The position numbers and the translations under genes were made by a program. From an uncultured virus (IMG/VR IMGVR_UViG_3300034110_000988) (taxonomy: Duplodnaviria > Heunggongvirae > Uroviricota > Caudoviricetes), in the IMG/VR virus record IMGVR_UViG_3300034110_000988: DNA of 57,257 nucleotides. One strand, 5' to 3'. This document shows, one piece after another, positions 18,609 to 52,506 of this stretch; the stretch's first letter is position 1, and each line of letters starts with the position of its first letter. Under the pieces are notes generated by a model that did no database searches, was not told where the DNA came from, and saw only the letters and a list, made by a program, of their open reading frames with translations.

Positions 18609-18681
18609 AGATGTGTATATCAGTCGGTAGATAATCTCTCTAACAGAGAGAAGGTCGCAGGTTCAATTCCTGTCACTGATG
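18609..18681 (+). tRNA. aberrant tRNA-like gene, anticodon AAC (Val-like), mismatched acceptor stem, no CCA
   Basis: TATC/GATA D stem, TCTCT-CTAACAG-AGAGA anticodon arm, GCAGG-TTCAATT-CCTGT T arm. Confidence 0.7.
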
Positions 18682-18709
18682 TGGATTTAGGCCGAGAGGT
18701 CAGGACGTA

Positions 18710-18783
18710 TACGGTGTATATCAGCGGCCTAGATAATTTCTCTAATCGAGAAAAGGACGTAGGTTCAAATCCTACCACTGTAT
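18710..18783 (+). tRNA. aberrant tRNA-like gene, anticodon AAT (Ile-like), C37, no CCA
   Basis: TACGGTG/CACTGTA acceptor, TATC/GATA D stem, TTTCT-CTAATCG-AGAAA, GTAGG-TTCAAAT-CCTAC. Confidence 0.75.
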
Positions 18784-18793
18784 TGCAAGAACC

Positions 18794-22371: not shown

Positions 22372-22638
22372 ATGAAACTACTTAACGTTCTCAATAGAAT
22401 TGGGAAAAACAACGAAAAACGTTTGCTGTCGAAAGCTAATGGTCTTTGCAATCGTTATTGCAACAACATTCATCTTCGCAAGCCGCTGGTATCGTATGAC
22501 CTTGCTGAAACCACCAGCCAAATCATGAACGACATTCTGGGGTCTGTTGCTGCTATGCCATCTGGCCCAGCAAAAGTTTCTGAACTCAAAGACTTGATCG
22601 GAATTGCTCAGAGAACCATCAAAAAAGATCTAAAGTAG
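22372..22638 (+). CDS. basic hypothetical protein, probable distant paralog 3
   Basis: AAGGA SD; NEKRLLSKANGL. Confidence 0.75.
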   Translation: MKLLNVLNRIGKNNEKRLLSKANGLCNRYCNNIHLRKPLVSYDLAETTSQIMNDILGSVAAMPSGPAKVSELKDLIGIAQRTIKKDLK

Positions 22639-35360: not shown

Positions 35361-35452
35361 TCGTTACAAAAAGGTTGAATGTTGGGTTGTTTTTTGCTAT
35401 AATAGCCTCATTGAAAAGCAGTATCCATGCTTGTTAAATAGAGGTTTCGCTT

Positions 35453-35680
35453 ATGTGCAGCAGAACTGACGCTGATGGGTTTCTTCCTTGTCCTTTTTGT
35501 GGTGGCACTGTCATCCATATGGAAACGTGGAGCCGCCAACGGGGGGAATGGCAAGGAAAAGTAACCAATGAGTGCTGTGGCTATACGTTTATTGTCTTGA
35601 ATGTGTATAGCTCGACCAAGAAAGAAGTCATCGAGTTCTACAAAAAAATGTGGAACAAAAGGCCAGAAAAAGCTTGCTAA
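35453..35680 (+). CDS. Lar (restriction alleviation)-like zinc-ribbon protein
   Basis: LPCPFCGG...CCG...WNKR pattern. Confidence 0.65.
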   Translation: MCSRTDADGFLPCPFCGGTVIHMETWSRQRGEWQGKVTNECCGYTFIVLNVYSSTKKEVIEFYKKMWNKRPEKAC

Positions 35681-35702
35681 GCGGTTCGAAATTTGATAGA
35701 AT
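35674..35702 (+). promoter_or_regulatory. sigma70-type promoter of ncRNA/tRNA unit
   Basis: TTGCTA-17 nt-TAGAAT. Confidence 0.7.
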
Positions 35703-35708
35703 GGCGAC

Positions 35709-35885
35709 ATTGAAACAGAGCAGCAAACAGAATTCGGAGCCTGCGTAAAAGTGGGTTGGGTGGCAGCGGTGTCGCGGGCAAGCCATCAATGAGACATGAG
35801 AGCAATTTCTGTCTCGCGGTAGAATGGGAATTATAGCCCAAGCGGTTATGATTAAAACGGCTGGGTGAGTCGGCCCTTTCTACCA
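35709..35885 (+). ncRNA. GC-rich structured RNA of unknown class, ending in a cloverleaf-like domain
   Basis: No credible ORF; GAGACA/TGTCTC hairpin; GGTAGAA(35818)/TTCTACC(35884) closing three small arms. Confidence 0.55.
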
Positions 35886-35904
35886 CACCTAATTTAAAGT
35901 TTAT

Positions 35905-36060
35905 ACAGTAGTAGCTCAATGGATGTTTAAAGGAAGCCGCGACTTGCAAGGAGATTCTAGACTCTTTTCTTGACGGTTTGGCCTATGTTAAACTAGCTTT
36001 CGACAGCAGAGTGTGCCCTGATAAGGCAAGGCGTTGGTTCGATTCCAGCCTACTGTACCA
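35905..36060 (+). tRNA. tRNA-Ile(GAT)-like gene with ~84-nt insertion in the D-loop; encoded CCA
   Basis: ACAGTAG/CTACTGT acceptor, GCTC/GAGT D stem, TGCC-CTGATAA-GGCA, GTTGG-TTCGATT-CCAGC, ACCA end. Confidence 0.8.
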
Positions 36061-36067
36061 ACAACGG

Positions 36068-36102
36068 AAAACAACTTGTTGAAAGACAGGTTGTTTTTTT
36101 TT
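36068..36102 (+). terminator. terminator of tRNA unit
   Basis: AAACAACTTGTT-GAAA-GACAGGTTGTTT-T run. Confidence 0.85.
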
Positions 36103-36193
36103 ACCTGCAAATTATTAAATATAATCAAAAAACACTTTCTTTGCCTGCCGATGTTTGGTATAATAAACCTTCAATATTTGGAGATACTACGAA

Positions 36194-36391
36194 ATGATGA
36201 CCAACACGACTTCCCAAATCAAAGTTGTCAAAAACGAAGGCGACTTCAAGCGTGCAATGGAAGCTGGCTTCGCTGTCAACCTTTTTGAATGTTCCGAAAC
36301 CGAAATGTGGTTGGTTCTACCGATGAAAGATGCGGACATGAAGCGTTATGCTGAACACTATCATTTTGAACCCGTCGCTATCACTCAGTAA
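36194..36391 (+). CDS. hypothetical protein
   Basis: GGAG SD, TGGTATAAT. Confidence 0.8.
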   Translation: MMTNTTSQIKVVKNEGDFKRAMEAGFAVNLFECSETEMWLVLPMKDADMKRYAEHYHFEPVAITQ

Positions 36392-36407
36392 GGTAAGGAA
36401 ATCTATC

Positions 36408-36617
36408 ATGGTTGATATTGTTAGCTTGGCAGAAAAAAGAATGTGTGTTTGTGTTAAATGCAAATCCGTATTATCTTTTTCGCCAAAGGATGTAACTGAG
36501 TTTGTTGAGCGAAAGTATATCGGTCAGGCTCAGAAACGATACTCCTTGATTTGTCCAGAATGCGATTACAAGCTGGTTTCTTCGTTGTCTTGGTTTCCAG
36601 TAGGTCATTGCGAATAA
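36408..36617 (+). CDS. zinc-ribbon protein
   Basis: CVKC...CPEC; AAGGA SD. Confidence 0.8.
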   Translation: MVDIVSLAEKRMCVCVKCKSVLSFSPKDVTEFVERKYIGQAQKRYSLICPECDYKLVSSLSWFPVGHCE

Positions 36618-38904: not shown

Positions 38905-39312
38905 ATGCCATTTGCTTACTCTGCTGCTTACCTGTCTTATGGTTCCGAGCGTATGTTTAAAGAGCTTGGAGTGAACAAAGACAAACTCCACATGACTACT
39001 TGTTTTGACACTACGGCTACCATTAAGCCTGAAAACAATATTGATATTGTTCACAAAACGGCTGTCATTGCTAACATTACTGAATGGGAAACTCCAAGTG
39101 GTTTGTATGTGGTGGCTGAACTGACTGATTGTGGTTGGAGTGCTGTCATGAATGCTCATTACAAGGCTCTTGGTGCCATTGAAGACCTTCCACACAATCC
39201 TCATATCACGCTCATGAAATCGTCGTCGCCAGAGCTGGTTGAGAAACTTAAAGTTCTGGTTGGTCGTGAAGTTGTCTTTAATGACCACGCCATTAAGGTG
39301 AAAGGTCTTTAA
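38905..39312 (+). CDS. acb1: 2H phosphoesterase, Acb1 / T4 gp57B-like anti-CBASS nuclease
   Basis: Two HxT motifs (KLHMTTCF, HNPHITL) with EWETPSG and YKALGA segments matching the T4 gp57B pattern. Confidence 0.8.
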   Translation: MPFAYSAAYLSYGSERMFKELGVNKDKLHMTTCFDTTATIKPENNIDIVHKTAVIANITEWETPSGLYVVAELTDCGWSAVMNAHYKALGAIEDLPHNPHITLMKSSSPELVEKLKVLVGREVVFNDHAIKVKGL

Positions 39313-40143: not shown

Positions 40144-40350
40144 ATGAAACTAAAACCAAACTTTATACGAACTATCGACTATAAGACGTTTGAAAATGCA
40201 CATTTTGATGTGAACGTGATGTTTATTTCAAGTCGTAAACCCGTCGATGGACAAGTTTCGATTATTGTTGTTGACGGTATTGAGCATCATGTATTTACTT
40301 CCGAATTGAAGGAATTTGTAAGCCTTCCAAATTCAAGGTTGTTATCATGA
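40144..40350 (+). CDS. small hypothetical protein
   Basis: ORF coupled to next gene (ATGA). Confidence 0.7.
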   Translation: MKLKPNFIRTIDYKTFENAHFDVNVMFISSRKPVDGQVSIIVVDGIEHHVFTSELKEFVSLPNSRLLS

Positions 40351-41162
40351 TTTCTTCATCGAAATCACTCACTAATGCTTATCGACAGCATGGCGAAGAC
40401 CTCAATAGCTCTGCAGAACTTGTAGAGCTTCGTCATATGCGGAACATTCAGGCTGACTGTCTGTTCTATAACTCCATCCGTGCTAGCCTTCCATCGTCTG
40501 CTAATAATTTTGAATCCACAACGCCTGTCGCGTTTTTGAACAGAAATGAACTGTACTTGCCTGCCATCCAACTGTTCAGTGACATTCAAAAAACAGATTT
40601 TTCTAATATTCAAAACATTCTGGATGTGTTGGTTACCTCGGGTGTTGAGTGTTGTATTTTCGCAGAAGGTGATAAACAGCTTAAAAGTTACTTGGACATG
40701 AAACATGTGATCTTTAACAACATGAAGTCAGTCTATGATGTTGCTATTCGGCATGATGGCTTAATTCGCATGGACAGCCACGAAAAAAGAAAACGAATGC
40801 TCAATTTGCATTTAAGTTTTGAGCTGGGTGTTTGTGCAGAAGGTGCTTTTGTTCAAACCAAGTTTACTGTTCCAACGTTTTATAAATCGTTTCCTATTTC
40901 TATTTATGAACTCAATGGAAAGTTTTACGTTTCGGTACCGAAAGAGTCTACCGAAGTTGGTCACCCTGAGAATGAAACCTTTATTTTTGAAAGTGCATCA
41001 CCACAAGCTGATATTGCTACTTTGGTACGGCATCGGTATCGACATCGTATTTTTTATTCAACATTTAAGCGGCATTTTGATAAATACTATGAAGATGATA
41101 TTCAATTTGAAGGTATTGACATTTGGTCTACTGTTCAGCTAATGGACGCCATGAAAATCTAG
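40347..41162 (+). CDS. hypothetical protein, C-terminal tag family
   Basis: Ends DIWSTVQLMDAMKI. Confidence 0.8.
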   Translation: MISSSKSLTNAYRQHGEDLNSSAELVELRHMRNIQADCLFYNSIRASLPSSANNFESTTPVAFLNRNELYLPAIQLFSDIQKTDFSNIQNILDVLVTSGVECCIFAEGDKQLKSYLDMKHVIFNNMKSVYDVAIRHDGLIRMDSHEKRKRMLNLHLSFELGVCAEGAFVQTKFTVPTFYKSFPISIYELNGKFYVSVPKESTEVGHPENETFIFESASPQADIATLVRHRYRHRIFYSTFKRHFDKYYEDDIQFEGIDIWSTVQLMDAMKI

Positions 41163-41222
41163 TCAGCCTTGACTAAAACCTTAATTTCATGTAGAATTGT
41201 CAGACACATCAGGAGTATATCA

Positions 41223-41705
41223 ATGCAAGAATTGGCTTCAGCTATTAAAGAATTCATGTTGAAACAAGGCGAAACCATTTCGGTGGCGGAAAGCTTGACC
41301 AGTGGTTATCTGCAGGCTCATATGTCTGCTATCGCAGGATCTTCAAAGTATTTTGTAGGTGGTATCACTGCCTACAATATCGACATCAAAGTCAAGTTTT
41401 TGAACGTTGATCGAGCCAACGCCGAAACATGCGATTGTGTCAGCGAACAAACGGTTGTTGAAATGGCAAAAGGTGTCGTTGAACTGTTTGATACAGATTA
41501 TGGCATTGCAACCACTGGTTATGTGGATAGTGATAATACAAAAGGCATGCCACACGCCCATTTGGCGATTTACTCTCGTAAAAAACAAAAGCTTCATAGC
41601 TTTTTCATGACGTGCAATCACTTGACCGAAAGACCAGCAATTCAGGCATATTTTGCTAGACTTGCGACCGAAAAATTGGTAAAATTCTTAACAGTTGACA
41701 TCTAA
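41223..41705 (+). CDS. pncC: CinA C-terminal / PncC (NMN deamidase)-like protein
   Basis: VAESLTSG, GSSKYFVGGITAY, K, VSEQTVVEMAKG, IATTG motifs. Confidence 0.88.
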   Translation: MQELASAIKEFMLKQGETISVAESLTSGYLQAHMSAIAGSSKYFVGGITAYNIDIKVKFLNVDRANAETCDCVSEQTVVEMAKGVVELFDTDYGIATTGYVDSDNTKGMPHAHLAIYSRKKQKLHSFFMTCNHLTERPAIQAYFARLATEKLVKFLTVDI

Positions 41706-41729: not shown

Positions 41730-42176
41730 ATGCAAACTATCAAAGCCGCAACTAATCAAGAACTCGTTTTGGTTCGTGGTCACTCGGGCAGTGGAAAATC
41801 AACCTTTGCCAGTTCGTTTGTTCCATTTGGTTACAAGCACTTCGAAAACGACAGTTTCTTTGTCGATGAAGATGGCGTTTATAAATTCGATTTCGCTTTC
41901 CATCAGGTAGCCAAAGATGAATGCGTCAAAAAAGCTGTTCAAGCTTTGCTGGATGGTGAATCAGTGGTTGTGAGTAATACTTTTACCAAAATCATCGAAA
42001 TGGATTCGCTTGTCGCTTTTGCGAAAGAACTGGGTATCGACATCCGGGTTTTTGAGATGGAAAACGATTATGAGAACACACACAACGTGCCAGAAGCTGT
42101 AATTGTTGAAAAGAAGGCTGCTTTTGAACCGATTGAGACGGCTTTCAAGGTTAAAGGTGATTATGTAGTCGTTTGA
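41730..42176 (+). CDS. P-loop nucleotide kinase (AAA_33-like)
   Basis: LVRGHSGSGKSTFA, VVVSNTFT, HNVPE. Confidence 0.85.
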   Translation: MQTIKAATNQELVLVRGHSGSGKSTFASSFVPFGYKHFENDSFFVDEDGVYKFDFAFHQVAKDECVKKAVQALLDGESVVVSNTFTKIIEMDSLVAFAKELGIDIRVFEMENDYENTHNVPEAVIVEKKAAFEPIETAFKVKGDYVVV

Positions 42177-52245: not shown

Positions 52246-52315
52246 CTGTTTGTAGTTCAGTTGGTAGAATCCCGTCTAAAAACGGTGGTCGTGGGTTCAA
52301 GTCCCATCATACAGT
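52246..52315 (+). tRNA. aberrant tRNA-like gene, shortened anticodon arm (AAA after CT), no CCA
   Basis: CTGTTTG/CATACAG acceptor, GTTC-AGTTGGTA-GAAT D arm, CCGT-CTAAAA-ACGG, GTGGG-TTCAAGT-CCCAT. Confidence 0.7.
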
Positions 52316-52506
52316 CGCTTACATATAAAAACCACTTTCTAGTGGTTTTTTTATTCTCTTTTTTTATTATTTAATGATAATTATTCTCATATTTTTTGAC
52401 ATCTTGTGTCAATGTGATAATCTATTCATACTTTAACTCATTAAATGAAACAACTAAGACAATCTAGATTGTGTTATAAACAACTAAACATTAGGAGAAT
52501 TAAATA

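What the first reader, a model, noticed from the sequence alone, without database searches (positions are those of the whole stretch)
35905..36060. tRNA-Ile(GAU) with an ~84-nt structured insertion in its D-loop
Seen: a perfect 7-bp acceptor stem (35905-35911/36050-36056), D stem GCTC/GAGT, the Ile loop CTGATAA, a canonical T arm and an encoded ACCA. The D-loop is split by 35923-36006. The insert folds on itself (TGTTTAAAG/CTTTCGACA closing stem, AAGCCG/CGGTTT, CAAGGAGA/TTTTCTTG) and is followed by a terminator. Known: bacterial tRNA introns are mostly group I introns in the anticodon loop, far larger than this; short non-canonical D-loop introns are an archaeal feature. Inference: this is an enzymatically excised mini-intron, or a tRNA mimic carrying an extra domain (decoy for anticodon nucleases, or a scaffold). 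Standard tRNA finders would probably miss it.
Basis: partly seen in the sequence, partly recalled or inferred. Interest (0 to 1): 0.82.

Follow-up and report, generated by a model that had tools for sequence, protein, structure and literature searches.

The report
Phage isoleucine tRNA split in D-loop
A bacterial virus carries an isoleucine tRNA gene whose D-loop is interrupted by a conserved 84-base insert, a position not reported for bacterial viruses in the papers searched, and how the RNA copes with the insert is unknown.

Summary
35905-36060 contains all parts of a tRNA-Ile: a 7-bp acceptor stem, U8-A9, a D stem, the loop CTGATAA, a canonical T arm and an encoded ACCA. About 84 nt sit in the D-loop just after G18-G19. 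ARAGORN and the Rfam tRNA model miss the intact gene. After in-silico removal of the insert, ARAGORN calls tRNA-Ile(gat). Of 56,952 possible 84-nt deletions in the window, new junction-spanning tRNA calls appear only here, apart from artefacts at the three known tRNA genes.

All four relatives that span the locus keep the insert with no indel: one metagenome contig and contigs from three sequencing runs, about 90-95% identical. Against the fetched relative the insert has 2 of 84 differences where the 3-kb background is 9.6% (p about 0.01). All three stem substitutions keep pairing. Relatives carry anticodon AAT.

I found no group I intron, no known ribozyme, no archaeal bulge-helix-bulge motif and no second copy. 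The insert's fold is no more stable than shuffled sequence.

Best reading (about 0.4): a working phage tRNA gene whose insert is cut out and the ends rejoined by unknown machinery. A retained extra arm is nearly as likely. No RNA data decide between them. This scan earlier noted hairpin-interrupted phage tRNAs on other DNA, all in the anticodon loop.

The parts
35674..35702 (+). Sigma-70-type promoter TTGCTA-17-TAGAAT with TG before the -10. The predicted transcription start is about 35709.
   Evidence: Promoter scan. Both hexamers are identical in relative L002. It overlaps the end of the Lar-like ORF 35453-35680.
35709..35904 (+). Structured leader RNA of about 190 nt, co-transcribed ahead of the tRNA. 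It is a multi-branched fold closed by a stem at 35730-35736/35888-35895. One hairpin, about 35789-35826, is variable.
   Evidence: Fold z-score is -2.69, with 1 of 200 shuffles as stable. All 6 predicted pairs that changed between window and L002 stay paired. No Rfam match. A second copy in relatives has 38 nt replaced by 119 nt (table 5).
35905..35922 (+). 5' exon: acceptor 5' strand, U8-A9, D-stem 5' strand, and D-loop A14...G18-G19.
   Evidence: In L002, 35910 A>G turns A-U into G.U, and 35919 A>G gives G15.
35923..36006 (+). Insert of about 84 nt in the variable part of the D-loop, after G19. It is predicted to form one long imperfect hairpin, 35925-35993, followed by a tail of about 13 unpaired nt. 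The boundaries are approximate.
   Evidence: 2 of 84 differences from L002 against a 9.65% background, binomial p = 0.0099. No indel in 4 of 4 relatives. No other copy in the window, and single-contig cover in the runs.
36007..36060 (+). 3' exon: A21, D-stem 3' strand, anticodon arm (GAT at 36020-22, AAT in relatives), a short variable loop, the T arm, acceptor 3' strand and ACCA.
   Evidence: 36012 T>C turns G.U into G-C. 36053 C>T turns G-C into G.U, 36020 is G>A, and a C is added after 36035 in two runs.
36066..36102 (+). Intrinsic terminator: a 15-bp hairpin with a GAAA loop, running into a T-run.
   Evidence: Sequence and the fold of the full transcript. The consensus scan did not list it because the stem has too few G-C pairs.

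Best explanation
This is a working isoleucine tRNA gene of a large, undescribed bacterial virus. It is transcribed from its own promoter as an RNA of about 400 nt: a structured leader, the interrupted tRNA, then a terminator. The 84-nt insert sits in the variable part of the D-loop, right after G18-G19. It is removed after transcription by cutting at both junctions and rejoining the exons, which yields a tRNA-Ile of about 72 nt. That tRNA reads AUU and AUC in this genome, and mainly AUU in relatives with anticodon AAU.

Shown:
- The gene's parts are present.
- The insert is conserved.
- Substitutions keep the stems paired.
- The promoter and terminator are present.
- The anticodon matches the virus's preferred codon.

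Inferred:
- That the RNA is made.
- That the insert is removed.
- That removal is done by a nuclease plus a ligase, from phage or host (for example an RtcB-type ligase), and not by a known ribozyme.
For: - The cloverleaf is complete once the insert is removed: ARAGORN calls tRNA-Ile in the window (115 of 196 boundary pairs) and in the relative L002.
- The result is not chance.
- 4 of 4 relatives that span the locus keep an insert of the same length: L002, X2 record 3, X9 record 14 and X13 record 1.
- tRNA plus insert has 6 of 156 differences against a 9.65% background (p = 0.0055).
- 3 of 3 substitutions in stems keep pairing, at 35910, 36012 and 36053. These include the D-stem pair that spans the insert.
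- The 35919 change creates a standard G15:C48 pair in L002.
- The anticodon varies only between two isoleucine anticodons: GAT here, AAT in 4 of 4 relatives.
- ATT is the window's commonest Ile codon (479 ATT, 215 ATC, 69 ATA). The three other tRNA genes (AAC, AAT, AAA) likewise match GTT, ATT and TTT. This points to a decoding role.
- From general tRNA knowledge, not tested here: an arm of about 70 nt emerging beside the G19:C56 elbow should hinder ribosome and RNase P contacts, so a decoder would need the insert removed.
- Precedent: conserved, unexplained short introns in Lak megaphage tRNAs (PMC6784885, passages read).
Against: - There is no RNA evidence of a spliced form. The one RNA-library contig that covers the site (X22 record 10, 35738-35941) runs unbroken from the leader through the 5' exon into the insert. 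That is the unprocessed form, or DNA carried in the library.
- No machinery for such splicing is known in bacteria.
- None turned up among the 71 ORFs of the window scanned against Pfam: no EndA, RtcB or Rnl.
- There is no bulge-helix-bulge motif at the junctions.
- The insert is more conserved than the exons (2 of 84 against 4 of 72). That is not expected of a passive intron.
- The mature form has blemishes: a 4-bp anticodon stem and a 3-nt variable loop.
- All comparators are close relatives (90-95% identity), and the conservation statistics rest on one pairwise alignment.
Confidence: 0.4

Rival explanations
1. The insert is retained. The mature RNA is a tRNA-shaped molecule of about 156 nt with an extra long arm projecting from the D-loop. 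It works in something other than ordinary decoding: as a decoy or nuclease-resistant stand-in against host tRNA-cutting defences, as a protein-binding scaffold, or as a carrier that stabilises the inserted RNA.
For: - The insert is the most conserved segment of the locus (2 of 84, p = 0.0099). This suggests that its own sequence matters.
- It sits at the D-loop's length-variable region, where extra bases point outward in known tRNA structures (general knowledge).
- The cloverleaf-constrained fold costs only 2.4 kcal/mol more than the free minimum: -38.1 against -40.5.
- The RNA-library contig crosses the exon/insert junction unspliced.
- No splicing signals or enzymes were found.
- All four tRNA-like genes of the window are somewhat irregular.
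Against: - The anticodon changes only within isoleucine and tracks the preferred codon. That fits a decoder.
- I know of no natural precedent for a large D-loop arm in a mature tRNA, and found none.
- The insert fold is no more stable than shuffles.
- It shows no covariation.
Confidence: 0.3
2. The insert is an intervening sequence of the kind known in bacterial 23S rRNA. A host double-strand RNase trims the hairpin out and the ends are not rejoined. This leaves a two-piece tRNA held together by the acceptor and D stems.
For: - The insert is essentially one long hairpin, 35925-35993.
- The two pieces would stay joined by 7 + 4 base pairs, all conserved.
- Bacteria have this route for rRNA (recalled, not from a call).
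- It needs no unknown ligase.
Against: - The hairpin is imperfect, with short helices of 6, 4, 4 and 8 bp and internal loops, so it is not an obvious RNase III substrate.
- About 13 nt of unpaired insert would remain.
- I know of no split tRNA that works unjoined in bacterial translation.
- High sequence conservation of the whole insert is not required by this model.
Confidence: 0.1
3. The gene is a disrupted, non-functional relic. It looks conserved only because the relatives are close, or because the DNA has another role.
For: - Relatives are only 5-10% diverged.
- The anticodon arm and variable loop are substandard.
- There is no expression proof.
- A second tRNA-Ile(AAT) gene exists at 18709-18784.
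Against: - 6 of 156 differences against about 15 expected (p = 0.0055).
- 3 of 3 stem substitutions are pair-preserving.
- There is no indel in 4 of 4 relatives. A further, more diverged contig end (X2 record 5) still carries the insert's 3' end.
- The promoter and terminator are intact and conserved.
Confidence: 0.12
4. The 3' part alone is the product: a D-armless mini-tRNA of about 58 nt (36003-36060). Its 5' strand ACAGCAG pairs with the same 3' strand. It is made either by RNase P cutting at 36002/36003 or from an extended -10-like element TGTTAAACT (35986-35994) inside the insert.
For: - The Rfam tRNA model and ARAGORN's mitochondrial mode both align exactly this form (23.9 bits).
- The -10-like element lies 7-8 nt upstream of 36002-36003 (read).
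- ACAGCAG is unchanged in L002.
Against: - The score is below the Rfam cut-off.
- The alternative acceptor has a C.A mismatch.
- A 7-mer with at most one mismatch in about 100 nt is expected by chance roughly once in 8 (my estimate).
- Bacterial translation is not known to use D-armless tRNAs.
- It ignores the perfect upstream 5' half and the conserved D stem.
- The promoter scan did not list the internal site.
Confidence: 0.05

Closest known systems
'Enigmatic' conserved tRNA introns of Lak megaphages (Devoto et al. 2019, PMC6784885; passages read)
   Same: Both are tRNA genes of large bacterial viruses interrupted by short sequences that are not recognisable introns. The sequences are nearly identical between related phages, the splicing route is unknown, and bacterial-mode tRNA finders miss the genes.
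   Different: The Lak introns were found with tRNAscan's eukaryote settings. Those settings look in the anticodon loop (my understanding of the tool, not stated in the passages I read). Here the insert is in the D-loop. The Lak introns are present or absent between phages, whereas here 4 of 4 relatives have the insert. The phage lineage and habitat also differ.
Archaeal non-canonical tRNA introns at D-loop and other positions, cut at bulge-helix-bulge motifs by EndA and rejoined by RtcB (PMC4090602 and PMC3241643; search listings and abstract starts only)
   Same: The position (D-loop) and the size range are alike. The exons are complete and the insert is hairpin-rich.
   Different: There is no bulge-helix-bulge motif at the junctions. 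The context is bacterial: sigma-70 promoter, intrinsic terminator, encoded CCA. No EndA or RtcB was found in the window.
Group I introns in bacterial and phage tRNA genes (10.1101/2020.01.27.920355 and PMC3984707; listings and abstract starts only)
   Same: They are the only established intron type in bacterial tRNA genes.
   Different: They lie in the anticodon loop and need a catalytic core that is, as I recall, over about 200 nt. Here the insert is 84 nt in the D-loop, and no Rfam intron family matches even at E up to 5-10.
Small hairpin elements that land in tRNA genes and leave dead stubs beside an intact copy
   Same: A structured insert of about 50-100 nt sits in a tRNA D-loop.
   Different: Those interrupt truncated duplicate fragments next to an intact gene, and they are multi-copy. 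Here the two halves make one complete gene, no intact twin lies beside it, and the insert is single-copy in the window and in each run laid.

Membership tests
Bacterial-type tRNA (Rfam RF00005 / ARAGORN cloverleaf) | The intact gene is recognised at or above threshold. | tested here: not met
   ARAGORN finds no gene. Rfam gives 23.9 bits against a cut-off of 29, and only as a D-armless alignment.
Bacterial-type tRNA (Rfam RF00005 / ARAGORN cloverleaf) | A complete cloverleaf with conserved U8, A14, G18-G19, A21, T-loop TTCGATT, discriminator and CCA once the insert is taken out. | tested here: met
   tRNA-Ile(gat) is called in 115 of 196 deletion variants, with the drawing. L002 gives tRNA-Ile(aat). 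Blemishes: a 4-bp anticodon stem or a G.A pair, and a 3-nt variable loop.
Group I intron | A match to the catalytic core model, and a size of about 200 nt or more. | tested here: not met
   No intron family appears among the Rfam matches at gathering score or at E up to 5-10. The insert is 84 nt.
Archaeal/eukaryal protein-spliced tRNA intron | A bulge-helix-bulge motif (two 3-nt bulges separated by 4 bp) placing both junctions in the bulges. | tested here: not met
   My own scan found one full motif, at an internal position and not at the junctions. Random places in the window give a mean of 1.4.
Archaeal/eukaryal protein-spliced tRNA intron | The splicing endonuclease (EndA) and an RNA ligase are encoded by the genome or host. 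| tested here: inconclusive
   None was found among the 71 ORFs of this 57-kb window scanned with Pfam. The rest of the phage genome and the host are not available.
Known small self-cleaving ribozymes (hammerhead, twister, pistol, hatchet, hairpin, HDV-like) | A match to an Rfam model. | tested here: not met
   No such family appears among the 9 weak matches at E up to 10 in 35600-36300.
Miniature mobile element (MITE-like) inserted in a tRNA gene | Several copies in the genome, and presence/absence between relatives. | tested here: not met
   The window has no other copy. In X2 and X13 only one full-length contig per run covers 35933-36014. No match to insert or gene patterns was found in IMG/VR. 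4 of 4 relatives have the insert.
tRNA pseudogene | Relaxed constraint: indels, pair-breaking substitutions, and loss of promoter or terminator. | tested here: not met
   6 of 156 differences against a 9.65% background (p = 0.0055). 3 of 3 stem changes keep pairing. There is no indel in the insert. The promoter is conserved.

The most novel reading that the evidence does not exclude
The 84-nt insert is itself a new small catalytic RNA, possibly helped by the conserved leader. It cuts itself out of the D-loop, leaving ends that it or a host RtcB-type ligase rejoins. That would explain why the insert is more conserved than the tRNA exons. It would be the first ribozyme-based mini-intron, and the first D-loop tRNA splicing, in the bacterial world.
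Probability: 0.08. Interest if true: 0.95.

Novelty: new variant of a known kind. Interest (0 to 1): 0.62.

Why it matters
Bacteria and their viruses are thought to interrupt tRNA genes only with self-splicing group I introns in the anticodon loop.

A conserved 84-nt D-loop insert in an otherwise intact phage tRNA points to one of two things. Either an unrecognised way of cutting and rejoining tRNA operates in bacterial cells, or there is a new type of tRNA-derived RNA with an extra arm.

Both readings connect to the unexplained tRNA introns of megaphages and to the arms race over tRNA-cutting defences.

There is also a practical consequence. Standard tRNA finders miss such genes, so phage tRNA repertoires are under-counted.

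The locus gives a short, easily synthesised RNA on which the question can be tested directly.

Tried and rejected
More relatives:
- IMG/VR pattern scans for the 3' exon, the exon/insert junction, the insert end, the leader core, a tolerant 3' exon and the insert core all gave 0 hits.
- My first gapped pattern had too short a gap (95 nt are needed) and returned only a false positive, L001, which is two neighbouring tRNAs.
- The GTDB genome scans gave 0 hits and 4 hits that are coding-sequence false positives, L003-L006.
- blastn against phage and plasmid records found nothing.
- A scan for loci related to the ATPase gene in IMG/VR found no relative.
- No whole genome is held for the window, and the record behind L002 is not held.
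- Covariation therefore rests on one fetched relative.

Insert structure:
- The fold is not better than shuffles, for the insert (z -0.09) or for the whole 156 nt (z 0.18).

Leader-insert pairing:
- Duplex energy is -49.0 against a shuffle mean of -48.3, so there is no signal.

Nearby RNA-repair genes:
- The 271-aa protein at 40347-41162 has no Pfam match, no PDB match and no usable Atlas match.
- The Acb1-like 2H phosphoesterase (38905-39312) and the AAA_33 kinase (41730-42176) could heal RNA ends, but they are equally explained as anti-defence or repair genes. I draw nothing from them.

Micro-ORF:
- ATG 35923 to TGA 35973 is 16 codons with no ribosome-binding site. One of the two substitutions in L002 is non-synonymous. 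I take it as chance.

RNA-library contig X22 record 10 (35738-35941):
- It covers the leader, the 5' exon and 19 nt of the insert. Contigs cannot show ends or strand, and DNA may be in the library, so it is not evidence for or against splicing.

X2 record 5:
- This is a 171-nt, low-depth contig. Its loose end keeps the insert's 3' end with two 1-nt insertions, but it would give a 5-nt anticodon loop. It is too unreliable to use beyond showing that the insert is present.

Literature searches found no paper describing a D-loop insert in a bacterial or phage tRNA gene. Subscription journals are not covered. I did not open the supplementary tables of PMC6784885, which list the Lak intron positions.

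Full report
WHAT IS THERE

The sequence at 35905-36060 contains every part of a tRNA:
- a perfect 7-bp acceptor stem, ACAGTAG 35905-11 with CTACTGT 36050-56;
- TA at positions 8-9;
- a D stem, GCTC 35914-17 with GAGT 36009-12;
- a D-loop that starts AATGG (A14, G18, G19) and ends CA (A21);
- the loop CTGATAA, with GAT at 36020-22;
- a T arm, GTTGG / TTCGATT / CCAGC;
- A73 and an encoded CCA.

About 84 nt (35923-36006) lie between G19 and the end of the D-loop.

ARAGORN does not find the intact gene, with or without intron options. The Rfam tRNA model scores only 23.9 bits (cut-off 29), by skipping the D arm and using ACAGCAG at 36003-09 as the acceptor strand.

When the insert is deleted in silico, ARAGORN calls tRNA-Ile(gat) from 35905 in 115 of 196 boundary combinations. 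The junctions therefore cannot be placed to the base.

As a chance control I deleted every possible 84-nt segment of the window, 56,952 in all. Junction-spanning tRNA calls arose at 16 neighbouring positions here and 15 times as artefacts at the three known tRNA genes. None arose elsewhere.

The mature form has blemishes: an effectively 4-bp anticodon stem and a 3-nt variable loop.

CONTEXT

The window looks like an accessory-gene region of a large, undescribed bacterial virus.
- 84 of 105 ORFs lie on one strand.
- Most have no family.
- The Pfam hits include Lar, Acb1-like, DUF6900, CinA, RNase T and PD-(D/E)XK nucleases.
- One ATPase is about 30% identical to proteins of Caulobacter jumbo phages.

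The locus is a transcription unit of its own:
- a promoter TTGCTA-17-TAGAAT at 35674-35702;
- a leader of about 190 nt;
- the interrupted tRNA;
- a 15-bp hairpin with a T-run at 36066-36102.

The signals are bacterial. An archaeal origin, where D-loop introns are known, is therefore not an explanation.

RELATIVES

Public phage and plasmid records and IMG/VR hold nothing similar. GTDB genomes gave only false positives.

One JGI metagenome contig (L002) is 90.4% identical over 3,026 aligned columns. Contigs of three sequencing runs also span the locus: X2 record 3, X9 record 14 and X13 record 1.

All four keep the insert with no indel. The only indel in the gene is one added C after 36035, in X9 and X13.

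Against L002:
- the insert has 2 differences in 84 (binomial p = 0.0099 against the 9.65% background);
- the exons have 4 in 72;
- the whole gene has 6 in 156 (p = 0.0055).

The three substitutions that fall in stems all keep pairing:
- 35910, A-U to G.U;
- 36012, G.U to G-C, in the D stem that spans the insert;
- 36053, G-C to G.U.

35919 A>G gives L002 a standard G15:C48 pair. With the insert deleted, L002 is called tRNA-Ile(aat).

All four relatives have A at 36020. The lineage's usual anticodon is therefore AAT, and this window's GAT is the exception.

This argues against a dead gene. The caveat is that all comparators are close and the statistics rest on one alignment.

IS IT A DECODER?

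The window's other three tRNA genes also begin their anticodons with A: AAC, AAT and AAA. The matching codons GTT, ATT and TTT are the commonest for Val, Ile and Phe in 62 ORFs of the window. For Ile the counts are 479 ATT, 215 ATC and 69 ATA.

Earlier notes of this scan describe AAU isoleucine tRNAs in other phages (e1-131012, e1-141319).

An anticodon that moves only between two isoleucine anticodons, towards the preferred codon, suggests selection for decoding. It is one substitution, so the evidence is weak.

WHAT THE INSERT IS NOT

- It is not a group I intron or a known ribozyme. No such Rfam match appears at E up to 5-10.
- It is not an archaeal-type intron. No bulge-helix-bulge motif lies at the junctions: one internal motif was found, against a mean of 1.4 at random places.
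- It is not a multi-copy mobile element. The window has no second copy, a single full-length contig covers it in each of runs X2 and X13, and nothing matches in IMG/VR.

It is predicted to form one long imperfect hairpin, 35925-35993, with a 13-nt tail. That fold is no more stable than shuffles (z -0.09). The two substitutions in L002 lie at unpaired positions, so nothing confirms the structure.

No splicing endonuclease or RNA ligase was found among the 71 ORFs scanned. The rest of the genome is not available.

HOW IT MOST LIKELY WORKS

I put about 0.4 on a working tRNA gene whose insert is cut out and whose exons are rejoined by enzymes not yet known in bacteria or phages. A decoder should not tolerate a 70-nt arm beside the elbow. 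This is general tRNA knowledge, not tested here. There is also a precedent in the conserved, unexplained tRNA introns of Lak megaphages (PMC6784885, passages read).

About 0.3 goes to a retained arm with a non-decoding role. The insert is the best-conserved part, and no splicing signal exists.

Smaller shares go to:
- excision without rejoining, as for rRNA intervening sequences (0.1);
- a relic (0.12);
- a D-armless mini-tRNA from 36003 (0.05).

The only RNA-library contig over the site is unspliced. It cannot be trusted as RNA evidence.

COMPARISON AND NOVELTY

Interrupted phage tRNA genes with short unexplained inserts are in print for Lak phages. This scan has noted them before in the anticodon loop (e1-6086262, e1-5941971).

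My six literature searches found no report of a D-loop insert in a tRNA gene of a bacterium or phage. The library lacks most subscription journals, and I did not open the Lak supplementary tables.

I rate the finding a new variant of a known kind. It has real interest for tRNA biology, but the evidence so far is only genomic.

Noticed in passing
window 35709-35904: A structured, conserved leader RNA lies directly upstream of the tRNA. It matches no Rfam family. Its fold z-score is -2.69. All 6 predicted pairs that changed against L002 stay paired. Relatives carry a second copy elsewhere, behind its own TATAAT box, in which the hairpin at about 35789-35826 (38 nt) is replaced by 119 nt. Both copies appear in contigs of an RNA library.
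   Followed up: partly
window 18611-18681, 18709-18784, 52246-52316: The three other tRNA genes all have A at the first anticodon position (AAC, AAT, AAA or a 6-nt loop). They also show irregularities: mismatched acceptor stems and an 8-bp acceptor. Their anticodons match the window's most used codons GTT, ATT and TTT.
   Followed up: partly
L002 (contig Ga0308158_10000001, range 841533-844557): The only fetched relative lies on a metagenome contig of 1,859,102 bases. That is far larger than any described phage genome. It could be a prophage in a host chromosome, a concatemer or a misassembly, but the record is not held, so this could not be looked into.
   Followed up: no
window 35994-36013 and 22419-22438: The unpaired 3' tail of the insert plus the D-stem strand is complementary to the mRNA of the small ORF 22372-22638. 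The match is 15 exact pairs (blastn E 0.023 within the window), extendable to 20 with G.U pairs. It could be chance, and it could not be tested in relatives.
   Followed up: partly
window 38905-39312, 41169-41705, 41730-42176: A small 2H phosphoesterase (Acb1-like, with two H-x-T motifs), a CinA-type protein and an AAA_33 kinase lie 3-6 kb downstream. They may be anti-defence genes or RNA-end-healing enzymes. No ligase was recognised between them.
   Followed up: partly
window 35400-36600 in public runs: Parts of this stretch are held by 24 listed runs from 17 studies, including freshwater, plant and fermentation metagenomes and runs labelled as single organisms. In one of those a 68-kb contig reaches depth 284. 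Only four runs were laid, so I draw no conclusion about habitat or host.
   Followed up: partly
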